Virus record (IMG/VR): IMGVR_UViG_3300045988_005826
Coordinates: 1-5,567 of that record
DNA from: a virus
Strand: one strand, 5' to 3'
DNA length: 5,567 nucleotides
Below, one piece after another: positions 1 through 5,567 of the stretch. The notes below the pieces were generated by a model. That model was not told the origin of the DNA, did no database searches, and worked only from the letters and a program-made list of their open reading frames with translations. The position numbers were made by a program, and so were the translations under genes. Numbering within the stretch: the stretch's first letter is position 1; the number at the start of each line of letters is the position of its first letter.

Positions 1-55
1 AAAAAAGTTTAGATGTACTATTTCTTGAAGGTCATGCGCTAGGCGCGGTGCGCCG
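1..55. repeat. Terminal direct repeat, left copy (circular-genome assembly overlap)
   Basis: AAAAAAGTTTAGATGTACTATTTCTTGAAGGTCATGCGCTAGGCGCGGTGCGCCG at 1-55 is identical base for base to 5513-5567. An exact end overlap of this kind is the usual signature of a circular contig written out linearly. Confidence 0.95.
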
Positions 56-70
56 TACGAAGAGCATGAC
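31..70. other. Nested GC-rich stem-loop in the noncoding region
   Basis: The outer arms GTCATGCGCT (31-40) and AGAGCATGAC (61-70) pair 9 of 10 positions, with one G/A mismatch at 38/63. The inner hairpin is GGCGC (42-46), loop GGT, GCGCC (50-54). Confidence 0.6.
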
Positions 71-112
71 GCAACTTTTCGGTTTTGCTCGCCGGACTGC
101 CTTTAATTCGAA

Positions 113-150
113 TTTTCAACAGTTTTAACAGTTTCAACAGGTTTTCAACA
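113..150 (+). repeat. Iteron cluster A: four tandem (T)TTTCAACA-type repeats at 9-11 nt spacing
   Basis: The copies are TTTTCAACA (113-121), TTTTAACA variant (123-130), TTTCAACA (132-139) and TTTTCAACA (142-150). All share one orientation and are separated by a single G or GG. Confidence 0.85.
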
Positions 151-156
151 AAAAGT

Positions 157-176
157 TGCACAAATGGTTTTGTGCA
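157..176. repeat. Perfect 8-bp inverted repeat TGCACAAA-N4-TTTGTGCA between iteron clusters
   Basis: TGCACAAA at 157-164 and TTTGTGCA at 169-176 are exact reverse complements, separated by the 4-nt spacer TGGT. This could be a hairpin or a dimeric protein-binding site. Confidence 0.7.
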
Positions 177-186
177 TATTGCTACA

Positions 187-226
187 CTTTCAACAATTCA
201 ACAACTTATCCACAAAATTATCAACA
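187..226 (+). repeat. Iteron cluster B: two TTCAACA iterons, a perfect DnaA box and a near-perfect DnaA box
   Basis: The sites are CTTTCAACA (187-195), AATTCAACA (195-203), TTATCCACA (206-214) and TTATCAACA (218-226), all in the same orientation as cluster A. Confidence 0.85.
206..214 (+). promoter_or_regulatory. Consensus DnaA box (TTATCCACA)
   Basis: This is an exact 9/9 match to the canonical high-affinity DnaA box 5'-TTATCCACA-3'. A second site 12 nt downstream (TTATCAACA, 218-226) matches 8/9. The flanking iterons TTTTCAACA differ at one position from the relaxed consensus TTWTNCACA. Confidence 0.6.
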
Positions 227-271
227 TTAAAATTATTAAAAAAATATCGCTCCAAGGATAATTATTCGTTG

Positions 272-288
272 TTTTCAACATTTCAACA
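272..288 (+). repeat. Iteron cluster C: two abutting copies TTTTCAACA + TTTCAACA
   Basis: TTTTCAACA at 272-280 and TTTCAACA at 281-288 have the same orientation as clusters A and B. A further degenerate copy, CTACAACA, lies at 305-312. Confidence 0.8.
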
Positions 289-311
289 CTCCCTACTACT
301 ACGACTACAAC

Positions 312-335
312 AAATAAATAATAAATAATAAAAAT
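312..335. other. Pure A/T tract (candidate DNA-unwinding element)
   Basis: The 24 consecutive A/T bases AAATAAATAATAAATAATAAAAAT abut the GC-rich palindrome that starts at 336. Confidence 0.6.
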
Positions 336-375
336 CGTGCGCGCGCGTGCGTGATTACACGCGCGTGTGCGCACG
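336..375. repeat. 18-bp alternating pyrimidine-purine (CG/TG) palindrome with ATTA loop
   Basis: CGTGCGCGCGCGTGCGTG (336-353), loop ATTA (354-357), CACGCGCGTGTGCGCACG (358-375). As written there are 15 Watson-Crick pairs and 3 G-T wobbles (343/368, 345/366, 348/363). Both arms alternate Py-Pu perfectly, which is Z-DNA-prone and cruciform-prone. Confidence 0.8.
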
Positions 376-384
376 TTCCAATAA

Positions 385-432
385 ATGGTAAAAATATTCG
401 GCCAAGTAGCTTACTTGATAGTTACTTGGCCG
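385..432 (-). terminator. Putative intrinsic terminator downstream of VP4 (rep)
   Basis: The site begins 14 nt past the rep TAG (446-448). On the - strand a perfect 10-bp stem, CGGCCAAGTA (432-423) with TACTTGGCCG (408-399), encloses a 14-nt loop and is followed by AATATTTTTACC. The loop is large for a canonical terminator. Confidence 0.5.
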
Positions 433-445
433 AGTGACACCAAAG

Positions 446-1465
446 CTAAAAAATGCCTTTTGCTTTGGACATCTTCTTCTTCATGGTCGTTTCCTTGTCT
501 GCCAGTTGTTCGGCATACTGTTTGTCAGTTCCCATGTTTCTTTCGATTAGGGACGCGATGGCTTTTCCTTGACGGTACTTCTTGATTCTCCACGCTTTTT
601 CCGGATTTTCTGCTTCTAGTTTTCGCCAATAATATTCTGGTATGGCCGCTCTCTTGCCGTTTGTCAGCTGGATGTATCCAAGTTGCCAGAGTCTTTCCTG
701 GTTCTCTTGAAACCATTCGTCCCCTAGTCCTGGTTTTCGGCTCATTACACAGAATGGCGGTATGATTCCCATTTTCTGGTACTTTTTTCGGTCGTTGCCG
801 AACAGCTTTTTGGTCACATATCCGGCTACATAGTTGTATGTTTCCGGCGTTGCTTGTGCAATGTCAACTGTACCCTGTCTCCAGATCTTGAGCAGCTTAT
901 CGCTCGTGTAGTGTCCGAATCTTGATAGCTTATGGATTGGCTTCAGGTCGTCTGGATGCCACCCGTACAGTATCATGTGGTAATGTGGTCTTGCCGTGTT
1001 GTCCCCGTACTCTCCTGCCAGAAAGTACCTTAGAGCTTCTCCTGTGGCTTTCCTGAGCCTTTTAATAAACAGCTGGACATCCTCTACGCTTAAAGTTAGC
1101 GCTGTTCTAGGACGCTCTGAGGTGTCTTTCCAGACGTTTACCCCGCCTCTGTAGATTTCACCTGTTTCCGTGTCCTGTGTTGGTACATGGTCTTCATCAT
1201 AGGTGAGTGTGATAAACCAGATGCTTTCTTTTTCGTGGCTGTATGCTTCCAGCTCCATTCTTGTGCTCCAGTCTTTCCGCTTTCGGAGTTTGCATCCGGT
1301 GCATTGTCCACACGGTATAAGCATGACGTCTTTACGGTACATCAGGTCTTCATATCTCAGTTCGGTCTTATGACTCGCGTTAAAAGAAGCGAGTGAGTAT
1401 ACTCGCCCACTCGCTTCTTTATTGTGAGGTACATAAAACCGGATTAACGGTTTGTTACACCCCAT
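446..1465 (-). CDS. VP4: Replication initiation protein VP4 (HUH rolling-circle endonuclease, phiX174 gpA-like), 339 aa
   Basis: All three RCR motifs are present: FITLTY (motif I), RPHYHMILYG with HYH encoded at 977-985 (motif II, HUH), and YVAGYVTKK with two Tyr three residues apart at 818-832 (motif III; compare phiX gpA YVAKYVNK). The gokushovirus-typical N-terminal PCGQCTGCKLRK is also present. The SD GAGGAAG sits 8 nt upstream of the ATG. The ATG follows the VP2 stop with a 1-nt gap (TAA-A-ATG). Confidence 0.93.
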   Translation of the reverse strand: MGCNKPLIRFYVPHNKEASGRVYSLASFNASHKTELRYEDLMYRKDVMLIPCGQCTGCKLRKRKDWSTRMELEAYSHEKESIWFITLTYDEDHVPTQDTETGEIYRGGVNVWKDTSERPRTALTLSVEDVQLFIKRLRKATGEALRYFLAGEYGDNTARPHYHMILYGWHPDDLKPIHKLSRFGHYTSDKLLKIWRQGTVDIAQATPETYNYVAGYVTKKLFGNDRKKYQKMGIIPPFCVMSRKPGLGDEWFQENQERLWQLGYIQLTNGKRAAIPEYYWRKLEAENPEKAWRIKKYRQGKAIASLIERNMGTDKQYAEQLADKETTMKKKMSKAKGIF

Positions 1466-2316: not shown

Positions 2317-3981
2317 TCAGTGATGATCTACCAGACCCGGAATACTGTACATCGGCATAGGTCTCACGCTGGTATTGTCAATGACCGTGTCCATGATAAA
2401 CTGAGGCTCATTGTCCTTGGCCAGAGTTCTCTGGATCTCGGAATCTCCCTCCTTCATCCATGCCTGGCTCAGGCTCGGAGTTTCCTTGTAGTTGTCGCCG
2501 TAGTGCCAGCTGTCCAATGTCCCTTCTGCATTCGAACGGAACTTGCCGCTGATGCGGTTTGGCTTCATTCGGTATTCTGCCCATGCTTCTTGATAACCAA
2601 AGGCCTGCTCATCAGTGTCTGTACCAGTGAGATAAAGCTCTTTCTTCAGGATAGCCTGCTCTCCCAGATTTGCGAAGACAGGATAGTAGAAGTCCAGATT
2701 GGTTTTCCGGCTCCACATCCGTTCCAAGCCCTGCTGGTAGGTATGGTCATGTCGGATGCAGCATACGCCGATAACATAGCCGTGTTCTTCGAAGCTCTTC
2801 GTGAACATGCTGCCATTGTACGGCGTAACACTTATTGCCGCGGCGTTACCCTGCGGACTCTCTTGCGTTGTGCCACTGGTCTGGATGACCTGACTCATGT
2901 TGATAGTGATGCGTGTGCCACCCAGGTACTCAGGAATTTGTACCGTCTTATCGCTGATTTTGGTGTGGAACAGCGAATAAATCATCTCTCGGTAACGACT
3001 GCCTCCGCGTGCCAGCTGTTCGTAGTACTTCTGTACCTGAAATGCCTGTCTCAGCTGATTAATGGTTGCCGATGTTGCGTTTGACAGGTCTGCTTTTAGT
3101 GTAAGTGGTTCCTCTACCAGGTTTCCGGGTTGTCCTAAGATACCGTCATATTTTGTTAATTCGGCTACGCTTCCGTTGTGTATTTCCAGCTGGCCTCCGT
3201 CGGCAGGTGCTTTTTGTCCGTTACTCCGGTAGTATCCGTATATTTTTGCAGTGTCTCCCAGCGGAATTTTTACAGGTTCTGCCGATTTCTGAGGGGAAGG
3301 CAAAGCCGATGTGAAATAGTCGTGGTACTTATTGACCGGTAAAGGTCTCCCGCCGGTGTATGCGTTCTGGAGAATATACTCCAAGTCCGGCTTTGCCGCG
3401 TCCATGCCTTTGGTTTCGTCGTCCGTGTAGTTCACGGTTGCGTCTGCCGTGCTGTTGATGGCCGGATTGTCAACATTTTGGTCTCTAAACCATTCCTGCC
3501 ATATCATAGCATAAGCGCGAAATGGCAGTGCATTAACGCTGAACGCCGAACTTGCGTTTATGCTTACCTTGGTCGGGATGCCCATATAGTCCATGATGCT
3601 TCCCTCATAAGGTGCAGGCTTTTCTGCCGTGCCGGTAACTTTGATCTGTGGAATAGTGTATTCCTGAGTCTGTGTCCAAGGCCCGCTGTCGTTCTCACCC
3701 ATAAATCGCTTGAAGTGGTCCCAGATGATTCGACAAGGCACGTTAAAATAGTAGATGTCCATGTGACAGTTATCCATAACTGGGAAGATAGGAGTTGTCA
3801 TACGGATAATAGCGGCCTGGTCGATGCTGAACGTGTCTCCCGGTAACACCTCGTCCACATAAAACGGGATGAGCTGTCCTGCGTTGAGCGTCAGCTTGAC
3901 ATCCTGTCGCCGCTTGAATCGGCTTCGCGTAATGTCCAAGCGCGGAACTTGGTTAAATCCTGCGTCTTTATTCCTGTTCAT
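2317..3981 (-). CDS. VP1: Major capsid protein VP1 (Microviridae F-like jelly-roll capsid), 554 aa
   Basis: This is the longest ORF. The N-terminal region [43 protein letters not shown]...TPIFPVMDN...[12 protein letters not shown] matches the conserved gokushovirus VP1 / phiX F signature. Its size is typical of Gokushovirinae. The SD GGAGGTGAAGGA lies upstream. The start overlaps the VP3 stop by 14 nt. Confidence 0.95.
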
Positions 3982-4462
3982 TCGATTCCTTCACCTCCGT
4001 CTTTTCTTTTTCGGGCTTTTCCGGCTCAGCGTAGATCCCCAGATTTTTTGCCCACTCGACCGTACCAAAGTCTGCGACGAACTTATCAACGTCGTTATCG
4101 TACTTGAGCTTGATTTCCTTCGGTACGTCGTCCCAAATCTGCTCTGCGCGGAGCATGATGTTTTGGAGTTCTGCTAGGTTCTCCGGTGCTTCGGTGTAGT
4201 CCTGGATGCCGTTCCCAATGTCCGGTACGAGTCGTGCTGCAAGATCTGGGTCAATGGATGCCCGACGGATGATGTTTTCCAGCTTGGTCTCTTCCAAATA
4301 GCTGTCAATTTCAGCCTGTTGGTCAATGACCTGGTCAAGCTTCAGGACTTTTTCGCCTTTTTCGTTGATTTTCCAGAGGTACGTTCGTCTTACGGTTTCT
4401 CCTGCTTCGGTCGGTTTTGCTGTTGCGGTTTCCCGCCAATTACTTACTGAGCGATACGCCAT
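3968..4462 (-). CDS. VP3: Internal scaffolding protein VP3, 164 aa from the ATG at 4462
   Basis: The protein is acidic and helical. It carries the gokushovirus VP3-like C-terminal pattern ...DYTEAPENLAELQNIMLRAEQIWDDVPKEIKLKYDNDVDKFVADF... and lies directly upstream of VP1. The ORF-track start at 4510 is a TTG. The ATG at 4460-4462 has the SD AAGGAG 10 nt upstream, so it is preferred. Confidence 0.8.
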   Translation of the reverse strand: MAYRSVSNWRETATAKPTEAGETVRRTYLWKINEKGEKVLKLDQVIDQQAEIDSYLEETKLENIIRRASIDPDLAARLVPDIGNGIQDYTEAPENLAELQNIMLRAEQIWDDVPKEIKLKYDNDVDKFVADFGTVEWAKNLGIYAEPEKPEKEKTEVKESNEQE

Positions 4463-4676
4463 CGAAGATGTTCTCCTTTTCGTTCTCAAAGATGCCCGTG
4501 GTTTCGTCAAACTTTGCCAGTCTTACAAGCCGGTAGTCGCTAGCCGCTTTGCTCATGATGTTGTTCGGGTCCGTCAGGGCGATTTTGAAGTTACGCTCTG
4601 CAACCTTATCGTCGCGCTCGTTAAAGGTGGTAATGTAGCCGTTAACACAACGGTCGAAGATTCCGTATACCTTCAT
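4440..4676 (-). CDS. Small conserved non-structural protein at the VP5 position, 78 aa
   Basis: A strong SD (AAGGAG) lies 8 nt upstream of the ATG. The gene sits immediately 5' of VP3, where gokushoviruses carry VP5/ORF5. The pattern MKVYGIFD...F...D..A.RNF......P.......DY.LVRLAKFDETTG resembles a recurrent small Microviridae protein family. The functional call is tentative. Confidence 0.65.
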   Translation of the reverse strand: MKVYGIFDRCVNGYITTFNERDDKVAERNFKIALTDPNNIMSKAASDYRLVRLAKFDETTGIFENEKENIFDGVSLSK

Positions 4677-5464: not shown

Positions 5465-5512
5465 GTATAGCAGCTCCTTTGTTTCTATGCTTATTTGTCA
5501 ACAGGTTTTTTG

Positions 5513-5567
5513 AAAAAAGTTTAGATGTACTATTTCTTGAAGGTCATGCGCTAGGCGCGGTGCGCCG
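5513..5567. repeat. Terminal direct repeat, right copy (redundant with 1-55)
   Basis: Exact 55-nt copy of 1-55. The true unit length is 5,512 nt. Confidence 0.95.

What the first reader, a model, noticed from the sequence alone, without database searches (positions are those of the whole stretch)
312..375. A/T tract abutting an 18-bp alternating CG/TG palindrome whose three non-Watson-Crick positions are all G-T on one strand
Twenty-four pure A/T bases switch abruptly into a 40-nt element with two arms of perfect Py-Pu alternation, which is the classic Z-DNA-forming sequence class. The arms are also an inverted repeat around an ATTA loop. As written, the three imperfect positions are G-T wobbles. 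On the coding/virion strand (the window's - strand) they become C-A mismatches. So the long hairpin is markedly more stable on the complementary strand, and the virion strand can form only 7-bp and 5-bp sub-stems. This strand asymmetry matters for an ssDNA virus whose two strands exist separately during replication. Sited next to the iterons and a DUE-like tract, the element is a candidate origin or cruciform, or a supercoil-sensitive switch.
Basis: partly seen in the sequence, partly recalled or inferred. Interest (0 to 1): 0.65.

Follow-up and report, generated by a model that had tools for sequence, protein, structure and literature searches.

The report
Strand-specific CG/TG hairpin beside phage origin
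A conserved 40-base hairpin in a gut microvirus (a small single-stranded-DNA phage) can pair fully on only one DNA strand, the strand opposite the genes, which also carries the probable replication nick site, so this phage lineage may package the "antisense" strand and use the hairpin to start copying it.

Summary
A 24-nt A/T tract (312-335) abuts two 18-nt arms of perfect pyrimidine-purine alternation (336-353, 358-375) around an ATTA loop. All three non-Watson-Crick positions are G.T on the window + strand.

The window is a circular gut gokushovirus of 5512 nt, with all genes on the - strand. The element is present in about 139 of 146 related genomes. Across about 100 distinct variants, the + strand folds into an unbroken 17-24 bp hairpin, while the coding strand is broken by A.C mismatches. 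In 35 distinct close variants, 148 pair cells are G.T on the + strand and none is A.C. Ten of 18 pairs show compensatory changes. So pairing is selected on the + strand only.

This argues against a cruciform, plain Z-DNA or a coding-strand terminator as the selected function.

Twenty-two nt downstream on the same strand lies a hairpin with the invariant loop TACTTGAT followed by TGACAC. That module occurs in most of 140 diverse gokushoviruses, almost always on the coding strand, but it is inverted in this lineage.

Best reading, which is inferred: VP4 nicks the + strand, that strand becomes single-stranded, and the CG/TG hairpin is a cis signal on it, most likely for complementary-strand synthesis.

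The parts
111..288 (+). Iteron-like direct repeats (TTTCAACA / TTTTAACA family), upstream on the same strand. Listed as context only.
   Evidence: Direct-repeat families D1-D3 and D6. The same GTTGAAA repeats appear in the relatives. Their function was not tested.
312..335 (+). Pure A/T tract of 24 nt. It is A-rich on the + strand and T-rich on the coding strand.
   Evidence: Read. An A/T-only tract follows the element on the coding strand in nearly all relatives.
336..353 (+). 5' arm of the CG/TG hairpin (CGTGCGCGCGCGTGCGTG). It carries wobble bases G343, G345 and T348.
   Evidence: Covariation with the 3' arm is shown.
354..357 (+). Loop ATTA.
   Evidence: The loop is nearly invariant in clade 1: A 34/35, T 35/35, T 34/35, A 33/35.
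358..375 (+). 3' arm of the CG/TG hairpin (CACGCGCGTGTGCGCACG). It carries wobble bases G363, T366 and T368.
376..397 (+). A-rich 22-nt spacer between the two hairpins. On the coding strand it supplies the T-run that follows hairpin 398-433.
   Evidence: The sequence varies but stays A-rich on the + strand in relatives.
398..433 (+). Origin-like hairpin with a 14-bp stem (one G.T on the + strand) and the invariant 8-nt loop TACTTGAT (412-419). It is the candidate VP4 nick site.
   Evidence: I4; the stem covaries between clades while the loop is invariant. Homology with Chp2 and diverse gokushoviruses is shown and alignment A3. It is the only CTTGAT in a hairpin context in the genome, and the coding strand has no CTTGAT at all.
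435..440 (+). TGACAC box that follows the origin-like hairpin in gokushoviruses. It lies 5 nt upstream (+ strand) of the VP4 stop codon (446-448), which is read on the - strand.
   Evidence: TGACAC is conserved after the hairpin in the aligned genomes.
446..1465 (-). VP4, the rolling-circle replication initiator. It has an HUH motif (HYHMILY) and a two-tyrosine motif (YVAGYVTKK).
   Evidence: ORF, translation, Pfam REP_ORF2-G2P at E = 2.7e-17, and annotated as VP4 in relatives.

Best explanation
The element is a conserved, strand-specific stem-loop that is selected to fold on the window + strand, the strand complementary to all mRNAs.

The most likely molecule is single-stranded DNA. VP4, a phiX174-A-like HUH initiator, probably nicks the + strand in the TACTTG|AT loop of the adjacent hairpin (398-433). 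Rolling-circle synthesis then displaces the + strand. On that single strand the alternating CG/TG arms snap into an 18-bp hairpin with G.T wobbles, flanked by A-rich unpaired DNA.

Because the hairpin lies just 5' of the nick site, it is the last part to be displaced. This is the arrangement seen for single-strand origins next to double-strand origins in rolling-circle plasmids. I propose that it is the cis signal, or part of it, at which the host priming machinery starts complementary-strand synthesis.

Shown:
- The structure.
- Its conservation.
- Selection for pairing on one strand only.
- Its position on the same strand as the conserved origin-like module.

Inferred:
- That the module is the nick site.
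- That the + strand is therefore the displaced and packaged strand.
- That the hairpin's job is priming.
For: (1) Strand-specific folding is conserved. In 62 distinct variants from 81 relatives spanning two VP4 clades (about 87% and 56% amino-acid identity), the + strand is more stable in 61 (mean -20.7 against -14.7 kcal/mol as DNA). In an enlarged clade 2 it is more stable in 58 of 59, and 50 of 59 fold as uninterrupted hairpins. As RNA it is more stable in 60 of 60.

(2) There is covariation. On 35 distinct clade-1 sequences, 99.8% of 630 cells are standard pairs on the + strand (shuffles 93.6 +/- 0.5%, 0 of 500 reach it). Ten of 18 pairs have changes on both sides, in 66 cells (shuffles 18 +/- 6.6; register slid by +/-2 gives 4-6). 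Every intermediate state is G.U: 148 G.U cells against 0 A.C cells on the + strand. Over all 60 variants the pair counts are 768 G:C, 238 G.T and 129 A:T. Every A on the + strand faces a T.

(3) The origin-like module is on the same strand. A hairpin with loop YACTTGAT followed by TGACA(C/G) is found in 106 of 140 diverse gokushoviruses, against 2 of 140 in a reversed-sequence control. In 104 of those it is on the coding strand. In this lineage it is on the non-coding (window +) strand in 76 of 80 genomes.

(4) VP4 has phiX-A-like HUH and Y-x-x-x-Y motifs, and the coding strand contains no CTTGAT at all.

(5) One unrelated gokushovirus (L160) has an independent CG/TG hairpin. Its G.T-tolerant strand is again the strand bearing the origin module, which there is the coding strand.

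(6) Hairpins in microvirus intergenic regions are the expected signals for complementary-strand initiation (PMC9865509, section 3.8, citing Shlomai & Kornberg 1980).

(7) At 4-fold degenerate sites, G>A on the coding strand runs at twice the rate of C>T (0.083 against 0.040). This fits deamination of the + strand, but see the evidence against.
Against: - No experiment shows where VP4 nicks or which strand is packaged, and Microviridae are described as positive-sense.
- The composition test is not diagnostic. Four other lineages have an inverted module (L155, L214, L259, L305). They split 2:2 in 4-fold A/T skew, and genomes with the module on the coding strand range widely. The 2:1 substitution asymmetry could therefore be codon preference.
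- The stems of the origin module show no G.T strand bias across diverse genomes (27 against 37).
- The element is absent from at least four related genomes, one of them a demonstrably circular contig (L064). It is therefore not strictly essential, or it can be replaced.
- It lacks the ssoA CS-6 motif and is much shorter than plasmid single-strand origins.
- Strict purine-pyrimidine alternation (26 of 27 variable stem columns change only by transitions) is not required by a priming hairpin and remains unexplained.
- In one subgroup the arms are exact direct repeats, and the long hairpin is not the minimum-energy fold (L329 group).
- L160 is a single example, with a 50% chance of agreeing by accident.
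Confidence: 0.4

Rival explanations
1. The hairpin works in RNA. A non-coding or antisense transcript of the window + strand carries the G.U-containing hairpin, for example to stabilise its 5' end or as an antisense regulator of VP4, in the way copy-control RNAs act in rolling-circle plasmids.
For: G.U tolerance with strict avoidance of A.C is the classic signature of an RNA helix. As RNA the + strand hairpin is very stable (mean -35.9 against -23.9 kcal/mol, 60 of 60). The element lies just beyond the 3' end of VP4, on the antisense side.
Against: The consensus scan found no sigma-70-like promoter on the + strand in 1-600. In many relatives the best -10-like hexamer directly abuts the stem, so a transcript would start inside the 5' arm (read). 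There is no U-tract after the hairpin on the + strand, so it is not a terminator in that direction. There is no Rfam match and no conserved + strand ORF. In L160 the equivalent hairpin is sense to the genes, which fits 'origin strand' better than 'antisense RNA'.
Confidence: 0.15
2. The element acts in the double-stranded replicative form. The alternating CG/TG arms flip to Z-DNA or extrude as a cruciform under negative supercoiling, next to the easily melted A/T tract, and so tune origin opening.
For: Both arms alternate Py-Pu perfectly. The alternation is maintained across the lineage: 26 of 27 variable stem columns vary only by transitions, and one variant keeps a continuous 38-nt alternating tract with no loop (L337). 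A rough two-state estimate puts the B-Z transition of one arm at sigma of about -0.04 in a 5.5-kb circle (the parameters were recalled from the literature, not fitted).
Against: Z-DNA is blind to which strand carries TG or CA, and a cruciform needs both hairpins. Neither predicts 148 G.T against 0 A.C on one strand, nor that every + strand A faces a T. The A.C mismatches make the coding-strand hairpin poor (longest helix 6.6 bp on average against 18.9 bp), which raises the cost of a cruciform. The critical sigma exceeds typical unconstrained supercoiling in vivo (from my own knowledge).
Confidence: 0.12
3. It is a pair of direct repeats of a CG/TG motif (CGTGCGCG on the + strand, 12 nt apart) bound by a sequence-specific protein such as VP4 or a host factor. 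The hairpin appearance would then be a by-product, because CG-rich alternating DNA is nearly self-complementary.
For: The two conserved wobble pairs (13:28 in 32 of 35 sequences, 16:25 in 29 of 35) arise because both arms carry CGTGCGCG. Some variants have exact direct-repeat arms: L010, the L329 group and the L063 duplication.
Against: Direct repeats do not predict the 66 cells with compensatory G:C to A:T changes at 10 pairs in the outer and loop-closing positions. Nor do they predict the complete absence of A.C. The motif register differs between the clades.
Confidence: 0.1
4. It is a second intrinsic terminator or insulator for coding-strand transcription after VP4. On the - strand this would be a GC-rich hairpin followed by ATTTTTATTATTT.
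For: The terminator scan flags a partial - strand stem at 365-340 followed by a T-run. The element lies just downstream of VP4, after hairpin 398-433, which is itself followed by a T-run on the coding strand.
Against: Pairing is not maintained on the coding strand: 23.5% of pair cells are A.C there, and the minimum-energy structures differ from genome to genome. The T-run directly after the stem is not conserved; clade 2 has TATAATATTAAC or an inserted block there.
Confidence: 0.08
5. It is a dif-like XerC/XerD site used for integration, as in enterobacterial gokushoviruses.
For: The best match to E. coli dif in the window (18 of 28) falls at the junction of the arm and the A/T tract (- strand, starting at 345). 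Some relatives read GCGCGCATAAT, which resembles the XerC arm. Some gokushoviruses do carry dif motifs (PMC7062461).
Against: A score of 18 of 28 is within the range of shuffled sequence, which reaches 18. The geometry is 18-4-18, not 11-6-11. No prophage relatives were found among 185,579 species-representative genomes.
Confidence: 0.03

Closest known systems
Single-strand origins (sso) of rolling-circle plasmids, and complementary-strand origins of ssDNA phages (phiX174 primosome assembly site, G4 oric, M13/fd minus-strand origin)
   Same: It is a non-coding, orientation-specific stem-loop that can form only on the displaced strand. It lies a short distance 5' of the putative nick site on the same strand, so it is exposed last. 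It is flanked by unpaired A-rich DNA.
   Different: It is much shorter and simpler: one 18-24 bp helix rather than 60-200 nt of branched or bubbled hairpins. It has no ssoA CS-6 motif. It alternates CG/TG strictly. No priming has been shown. It can be missing in rare relatives.
phiX174 / pC194-type double-strand origin (nick core CTTG|ATA), for the neighbouring hairpin 398-433
   Same: The ACTTGATA octamer is identical to the phiX174 origin core (from my own knowledge). The initiator has HUH and two-tyrosine motifs. The motif sits in an invariant loop of a stem that covaries.
   Different: In this lineage it lies on the strand opposite to the genes, whereas in phiX174, Chp2 and 104 of 106 other gokushoviruses with a recognisable module it is on the coding strand. 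Cleavage has not been tested.
Z-DNA-forming (CG)n/(TG)n tracts and cruciform-forming palindromes in supercoiled plasmids
   Same: It has alternating Py-Pu arms of 18 bp, rich in CpG, arranged as an inverted repeat next to an A/T tract.
   Different: The conserved one-strand G.T pattern and the covariation show selection on a single-stranded fold, which neither of these structures requires. The palindrome is only 83% Watson-Crick.
Conserved intergenic hairpins reported in other small microviruses (PMC9865509)
   Same: They are intergenic, conserved within clades, show compensatory substitutions, and have been proposed as signals for complementary-strand initiation.
   Different: They come from different clades and have different sequences. 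No strand-asymmetry argument or alternating CG/TG composition was reported for them.

Membership tests
Single-strand (complementary-strand) origin of rolling-circle replicons | Extensive intrastrand pairing that forms on one strand only, so that function depends on orientation | tested here: met
   The + strand hairpin is unbroken and the coding strand is broken in 61 of 62 and 58 of 59 variants. There are 148 G.T cells against 0 A.C cells.
Single-strand (complementary-strand) origin of rolling-circle replicons | Lies on the strand displaced by the initiator, upstream of the nick site | tested here: inconclusive
   It is on the same strand as the conserved TACTTGAT-loop module and 22 nt 5' of it. 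That this module is the nick site is an inference.
Single-strand (complementary-strand) origin of rolling-circle replicons | Directs RNA priming by host RNA polymerase, primase or PriA on ssDNA | not testable with these tools
   This needs in vitro replication or primer mapping.
ssoA-type plasmid origin | Conserved CS-6 loop motif TAGCG(T/A) | tested here: not met
   There is only one TAGCGW in the window, at 4537-4542 and far from the element.
Z-DNA-forming sequence | At least 12 bp of alternating purine-pyrimidine rich in CG | tested here: met
   There are two 18-bp alternating arms. The alternation is conserved.
Z-DNA-forming sequence | B-to-Z transition at physiological superhelix density | tested here: inconclusive
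   A rough estimate gives sigma of about -0.04 (using recalled parameters). Z-Hunt and probing were not available.
Cruciform-forming palindrome | Near-perfect Watson-Crick inverted repeat, so that both strands form stable hairpins | tested here: not met
   Watson-Crick complementarity is 83%. The coding-strand hairpin is weak and variable.
Intrinsic (rho-independent) terminator for the gene strand | Stable RNA hairpin on the transcribed sense, followed directly by a U-tract, with pairing maintained on that strand | tested here: not met
   A.C mismatches accumulate on the coding strand in 23.5% of cells. The T-run is not conserved in clade 2. Only a partial stem is flagged.
dif / XerCD recombination site | 28-bp site of 11-6-11 with recognisable XerC and XerD arms | tested here: not met
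   The best match is 18 of 28, and shuffled sequence also reaches 18. No prophage relatives were found.
Known RNA families (Rfam 15) | A match to a curated covariance model | tested here: not met
   There is only a sub-threshold chance hit, MIR5638 at 18.8 bits against a gathering score of 500.
Gokushovirus origin-like hairpin module (neighbouring feature 398-441) | Stem of 8-14 bp, loop containing YACTTGAT, and TGACA(C/G) within a few nt downstream | tested here: met
   The window + strand matches at 398-440. Alignment A3 shows invariant TACTTGAT and TGACAC. The module is found in 106 of 140 diverse genomes against 2 of 140 in the reversed-sequence control.

The most novel reading that the evidence does not exclude
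This gut gokushovirus lineage (at least 140 genomes in IMG/VR, plus GenBank relatives from human, monkey and pig faeces) is a negative-sense microvirus. VP4 nicks the strand complementary to the mRNAs at an inverted TACTTG|AT origin hairpin, and that strand is rolled off and packaged. The lineage-specific alternating CG/TG hairpin is its complementary-strand origin. The G.T wobbles record C-to-T drift tolerated on the single strand.
Probability: 0.35. Interest if true: 0.8.

Novelty: new variant of a known kind. Interest (0 to 1): 0.62.

Why it matters
Gokushoviruses are among the most abundant ssDNA phages in gut and environmental viromes. In the papers I could search, I found no description of their replication origins or complementary-strand signals.

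This element gives a sequence-only readout of which strand is biologically single-stranded. Together with the inverted origin-like module, it predicts that a large gut lineage packages the strand antisense to its genes. That would be an exception to the positive-sense description of Microviridae.

The prediction is directly testable with strand-specific probes, or with existing virome libraries that retain strand information. The conserved TACTTGAT/TGACAC module is also a practical marker for orienting microvirus genomes and choosing their start coordinate.

Tried and rejected
- Base-composition skew as a marker of the virion strand. The whole-genome A/T skew of the coding strand is +0.28, but phiMH2K is similar, and genomes with the origin module on the coding strand span -0.29 to +0.30. 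At 4-fold sites the window lineage (+0.45), L155 and L214 fit the model, but L259 and L305 have inverted modules with the opposite skew. Not diagnostic.
- Directional substitution counts. G>A runs at twice the rate of C>T on the coding strand. This is suggestive, but I could not obtain a densely sampled control clade with the normal origin orientation, so selection on codons cannot be excluded.
- G.T bias in the origin-module stems across diverse genomes: none found (27 against 37).
- Prophage or host search with VP4 in species-representative genomes: no relatives.
- Rfam: nothing.
- Exact-arm search in IMG/VR: 15 hits, only one of them a relative. The rest are large, unrelated GC-rich contigs.
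- dif similarity: not above shuffles.
- ssoA CS-6 motif: absent.
- pMV158-type nick motif TACTACGAC at 297-305. I noticed it by eye and rejected it as coincidence, because the G is not conserved; many relatives have TACTACTAC there.
- Literature searches for a described gokushovirus origin or hairpin: none found.

Full report
**What the window is.** The 5567 bases are a circular contig of 5512 nt with a 55-nt assembly overlap. It is a gokushovirus (Microviridae) related to isolates from human, monkey and pig faeces; the best GenBank match is MG945657 at 89% identity over 90% of the window. All recognisable genes are on the window - strand:
- VP4 at 446-1465 (Pfam REP_ORF2-G2P).
- VP2 at 1467-2270.
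- VP1 at 2317-3981 (Phage_F, E = 4e-145).
- A Chp2-type scaffold protein at 3968-4510.

The finding lies in the single long non-coding region, about 500 nt in all (1-445 plus the 11 nt 5502-5512 before the circle closes).

**The observation.** It is exactly as described:
- A/T tract at 312-335.
- Arms at 336-353 and 358-375, both perfectly alternating pyrimidine-purine.
- Loop ATTA.
- Three non-Watson-Crick positions (343.368, 345.366, 348.363), all G.T on the + strand.

As DNA the + strand folds into an unbroken 18-bp hairpin at -22.1 kcal/mol (z = -3.8). The - strand reaches -17.4 kcal/mol only through a shifted, interrupted structure (z = -2.0).

**Conservation.** I retrieved 80 relatives by VP4 from IMG/VR plus three GenBank genomes, and later 64 more from the second clade. 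On the coding strand, the region downstream of the VP4 stop has a constant order:
1. A TGACAC/GTGTCA palindrome at the VP4 stop codon.
2. Hairpin 1.
3. A T-run.
4. The alternating CG/CA element.
5. An A/T tract.
6. A conserved box, (A/T)(C/T)TTGTTGTAGNNGTAGTAGTAG.
7. GTTGAAA repeats.

The alternating element is present in about 139 of 146 genomes. It is deleted or truncated in a few (L023, L064, L074, L356, L366). Only L064 among these is a demonstrably circular contig.

**Strand asymmetry is a property of the lineage.**
- Across 62 distinct variants the + strand is the more stable in 61 (mean -20.7 against -14.7 kcal/mol), and almost all fold as one uninterrupted 17-24 bp helix.
- In the enlarged second clade the + strand is more stable in 58 of 59.
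- As RNA it is more stable in 60 of 60.
- On an ungapped alignment of 35 distinct clade-1 sequences, 99.8% of 630 pair cells are standard pairs on the + strand. Ten of 18 pairs show changes on both sides (66 cells, against 18 +/- 6.6 in shuffles and 4-6 when the register is slid by two). All intermediates are G.U: 148 G.U cells and no A.C cell.
- Every A on the + strand faces a T, 129 of 129 in the first set. T's face G twice as often as they face A.

Any alternating tract that uses only C, G and T on one strand would look like this trivially. What is not trivial is that A's do occur and are always compensated. Selection therefore removes A.C on the + strand and ignores A.C on the coding strand.

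That argues against three readings of what is being maintained:
- A cruciform, which needs both hairpins.
- A symmetric duplex binding site, which has no polarity.
- A coding-strand terminator, which would need pairing on the other strand.

Mutation bias alone would need to be nearly absolute to give 148 against 0.

**A second constraint: alternation.** Twenty-six of 27 variable stem columns vary only by transitions, so purine-pyrimidine alternation is kept. One variant is a continuous 38-nt alternating tract (L337). Two conserved wobble pairs arise because both arms carry CGTGCGCG. In one subgroup the arms are exact direct repeats, and the long hairpin is no longer the best fold. So Z-DNA potential, dinucleotide slippage or a repeated recognition motif may contribute. 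A rough estimate puts the B-Z transition at sigma of about -0.04. None of this explains the polarity.

**Which strand is single-stranded?** Hairpin 1 (window + strand 398-433) has a stem that covaries between the clades and an invariant loop. Read on the + strand the loop is TACTTGAT, followed by GTGACACC.

Chp2 has the same 8-mer in the loop of a perfect 14-bp hairpin followed by GTGATAG, but there it is on the coding strand.

A scan of 140 diverse gokushovirus genomes found this module (stem, YACTTGAT loop, TGACA(C/G) box) in 106, against 2 of 140 reversed-sequence controls. It was on the coding strand in 104 and on the non-coding strand in 2. Later sampling raised the number of inverted singletons to 4. 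Alignment A3 shows TACTTGAT and TGACAC invariant.

In the window lineage the module is on the non-coding strand in 76 of 80 genomes, and the coding strand has no CTTGAT anywhere.

ACTTGATA is the core of the phiX174 origin, and CTTG|ATA is the pC194-family nick site (both from my own knowledge). VP4 carries the HUH and Y-x-x-x-Y motifs of that initiator class.

The simplest reading is that this module is the gokushovirus plus-strand origin and that it is inverted relative to the genes in this lineage. The displaced strand, and hence the packaged strand, would then be the window + strand. That is exactly the strand on which the CG/TG hairpin is selected to fold.

The only other CG/TG hairpin found among the diverse genomes (L160, intergenic) also tolerates G.T on its origin-bearing strand, which there is the coding strand. 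This is a single case.

**Proposed mechanism.** After nicking at TACTTG|AT, synthesis runs round the circle. The CG/TG element lies 40-80 nt 5' of the nick, so it is displaced last and folds between A-rich unpaired flanks. This is the geometry of a single-strand origin next to a double-strand origin in rolling-circle plasmids. Hairpins are also the known entry points for complementary-strand priming in phiX174, G4 and M13 (for the microvirus context). I therefore rank a complementary-strand initiation signal first, at a confidence of about 0.4. Priming itself, the nick site and the packaged strand are all inferred.

**Tests of the packaged-strand idea that did not settle it.**
- Coding-strand A/T skew is strongly positive here, both genome-wide and at 4-fold sites, and G>A outruns C>T two to one. 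This is what deamination of the + strand would produce.
- However, skews vary widely among genomes with the normal orientation, and two of the four other inverted genomes have the opposite skew.
- The origin-module stems show no G.T bias.

**Other rivals.**
- A + strand RNA is compatible with the G.U signature but lacks a promoter, a terminator or a Rfam match.
- A dif site is not supported.
- The ssoA CS-6 motif is absent.
- I found no published description of this element or of the origin module.

**Verdict.** The cruciform and Z-DNA mechanism, and the assumption about which strand is the virion strand, are not supported.

The element is best described as a lineage-specific, strand-specific ssDNA hairpin that accompanies an inverted origin. 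I class it as a new variant of a known kind of signal. It carries a testable and more surprising implication, which is negative-sense packaging.

Noticed in passing
window 398-441 (+ strand); L100 (Chp2) 2903-2950; L155, L214, L259, L305: A hairpin with loop YACTTGAT followed by TGACA(C/G) is conserved in most gokushoviruses (106 of 140), almost always on the coding strand. It is inverted in the window lineage and in four singleton genomes. I found no published description of it. It looks like the gokushovirus plus-strand origin.
   Followed up: yes
window 21-110 (+ strand): There is a highly conserved structured block, GGTCATGCG-N-TAGGCGCGGTGCGCCGTRCGAAGAGCATGAC, followed by a CCGG...CCGG hairpin. 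It is shared at 83-85% identity with gokushoviruses that are otherwise unrelated (MT135258, MG945157, MG945391) and is conserved in 52 relatives. It may be a mobile non-coding module, or another ssDNA or RNA structure.
   Followed up: partly
window 198-281 (- strand): A 27-codon ORF (MLKTTNNYPWSDIFLIILMLIILWISC) starts 8 nt after a GGGAG Shine-Dalgarno-like box inside the 'iteron' region, and its product is hydrophobic. The N-terminus (ML-N/K-T..YPW) recurs in several relatives but is cut short in others, for example L015. Some of the 'iterons' may therefore be coding, or this may be a small membrane or lysis peptide.
   Followed up: no
window 1-55 and 5513-5567: An exact 55-nt terminal repeat shows that the window is a circular assembly of 5512 nt.
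   Followed up: yes
L160 3351-3396: A distantly related environmental gokushovirus has an independent CG/TG hairpin in an intergenic region, again with G.T on one strand only. There that strand is the coding strand, which also bears the origin module. A GC-rich terminator-like hairpin follows it.
   Followed up: partly
L063, L337, L329/L330/L359/L360/L368, L064: The element has structural variants: a tandem duplication of a half-element (L063), a loop-less continuous alternating tract (L337), arms that are exact direct repeats (L329 group), and a complete circular genome that lacks the element and has a 5-bp mini-hairpin in its place (L064). These point to slippage or recombination at the repeat.
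   Followed up: partly
window 284-311 (+ strand), coding-strand box (A/T)(C/T)TTGTTGTAGNNGTAGTAGTAG: This box is the most conserved non-coding sequence across both clades. In the window its + strand reads TACTACGAC (297-305), identical to the pMV158 nick sequence as I recall it. The G is not conserved in relatives, so I judged this a coincidence.
   Followed up: partly
whole window, coding strand: The coding strand is strongly A-rich over T (A 33.6%, T 18.7%). At 4-fold sites of VP4, A is 52% and T is 12%. This is unusual compared with most gokushoviruses sampled, whose mean 4-fold A/T skew is -0.36.
   Followed up: partly
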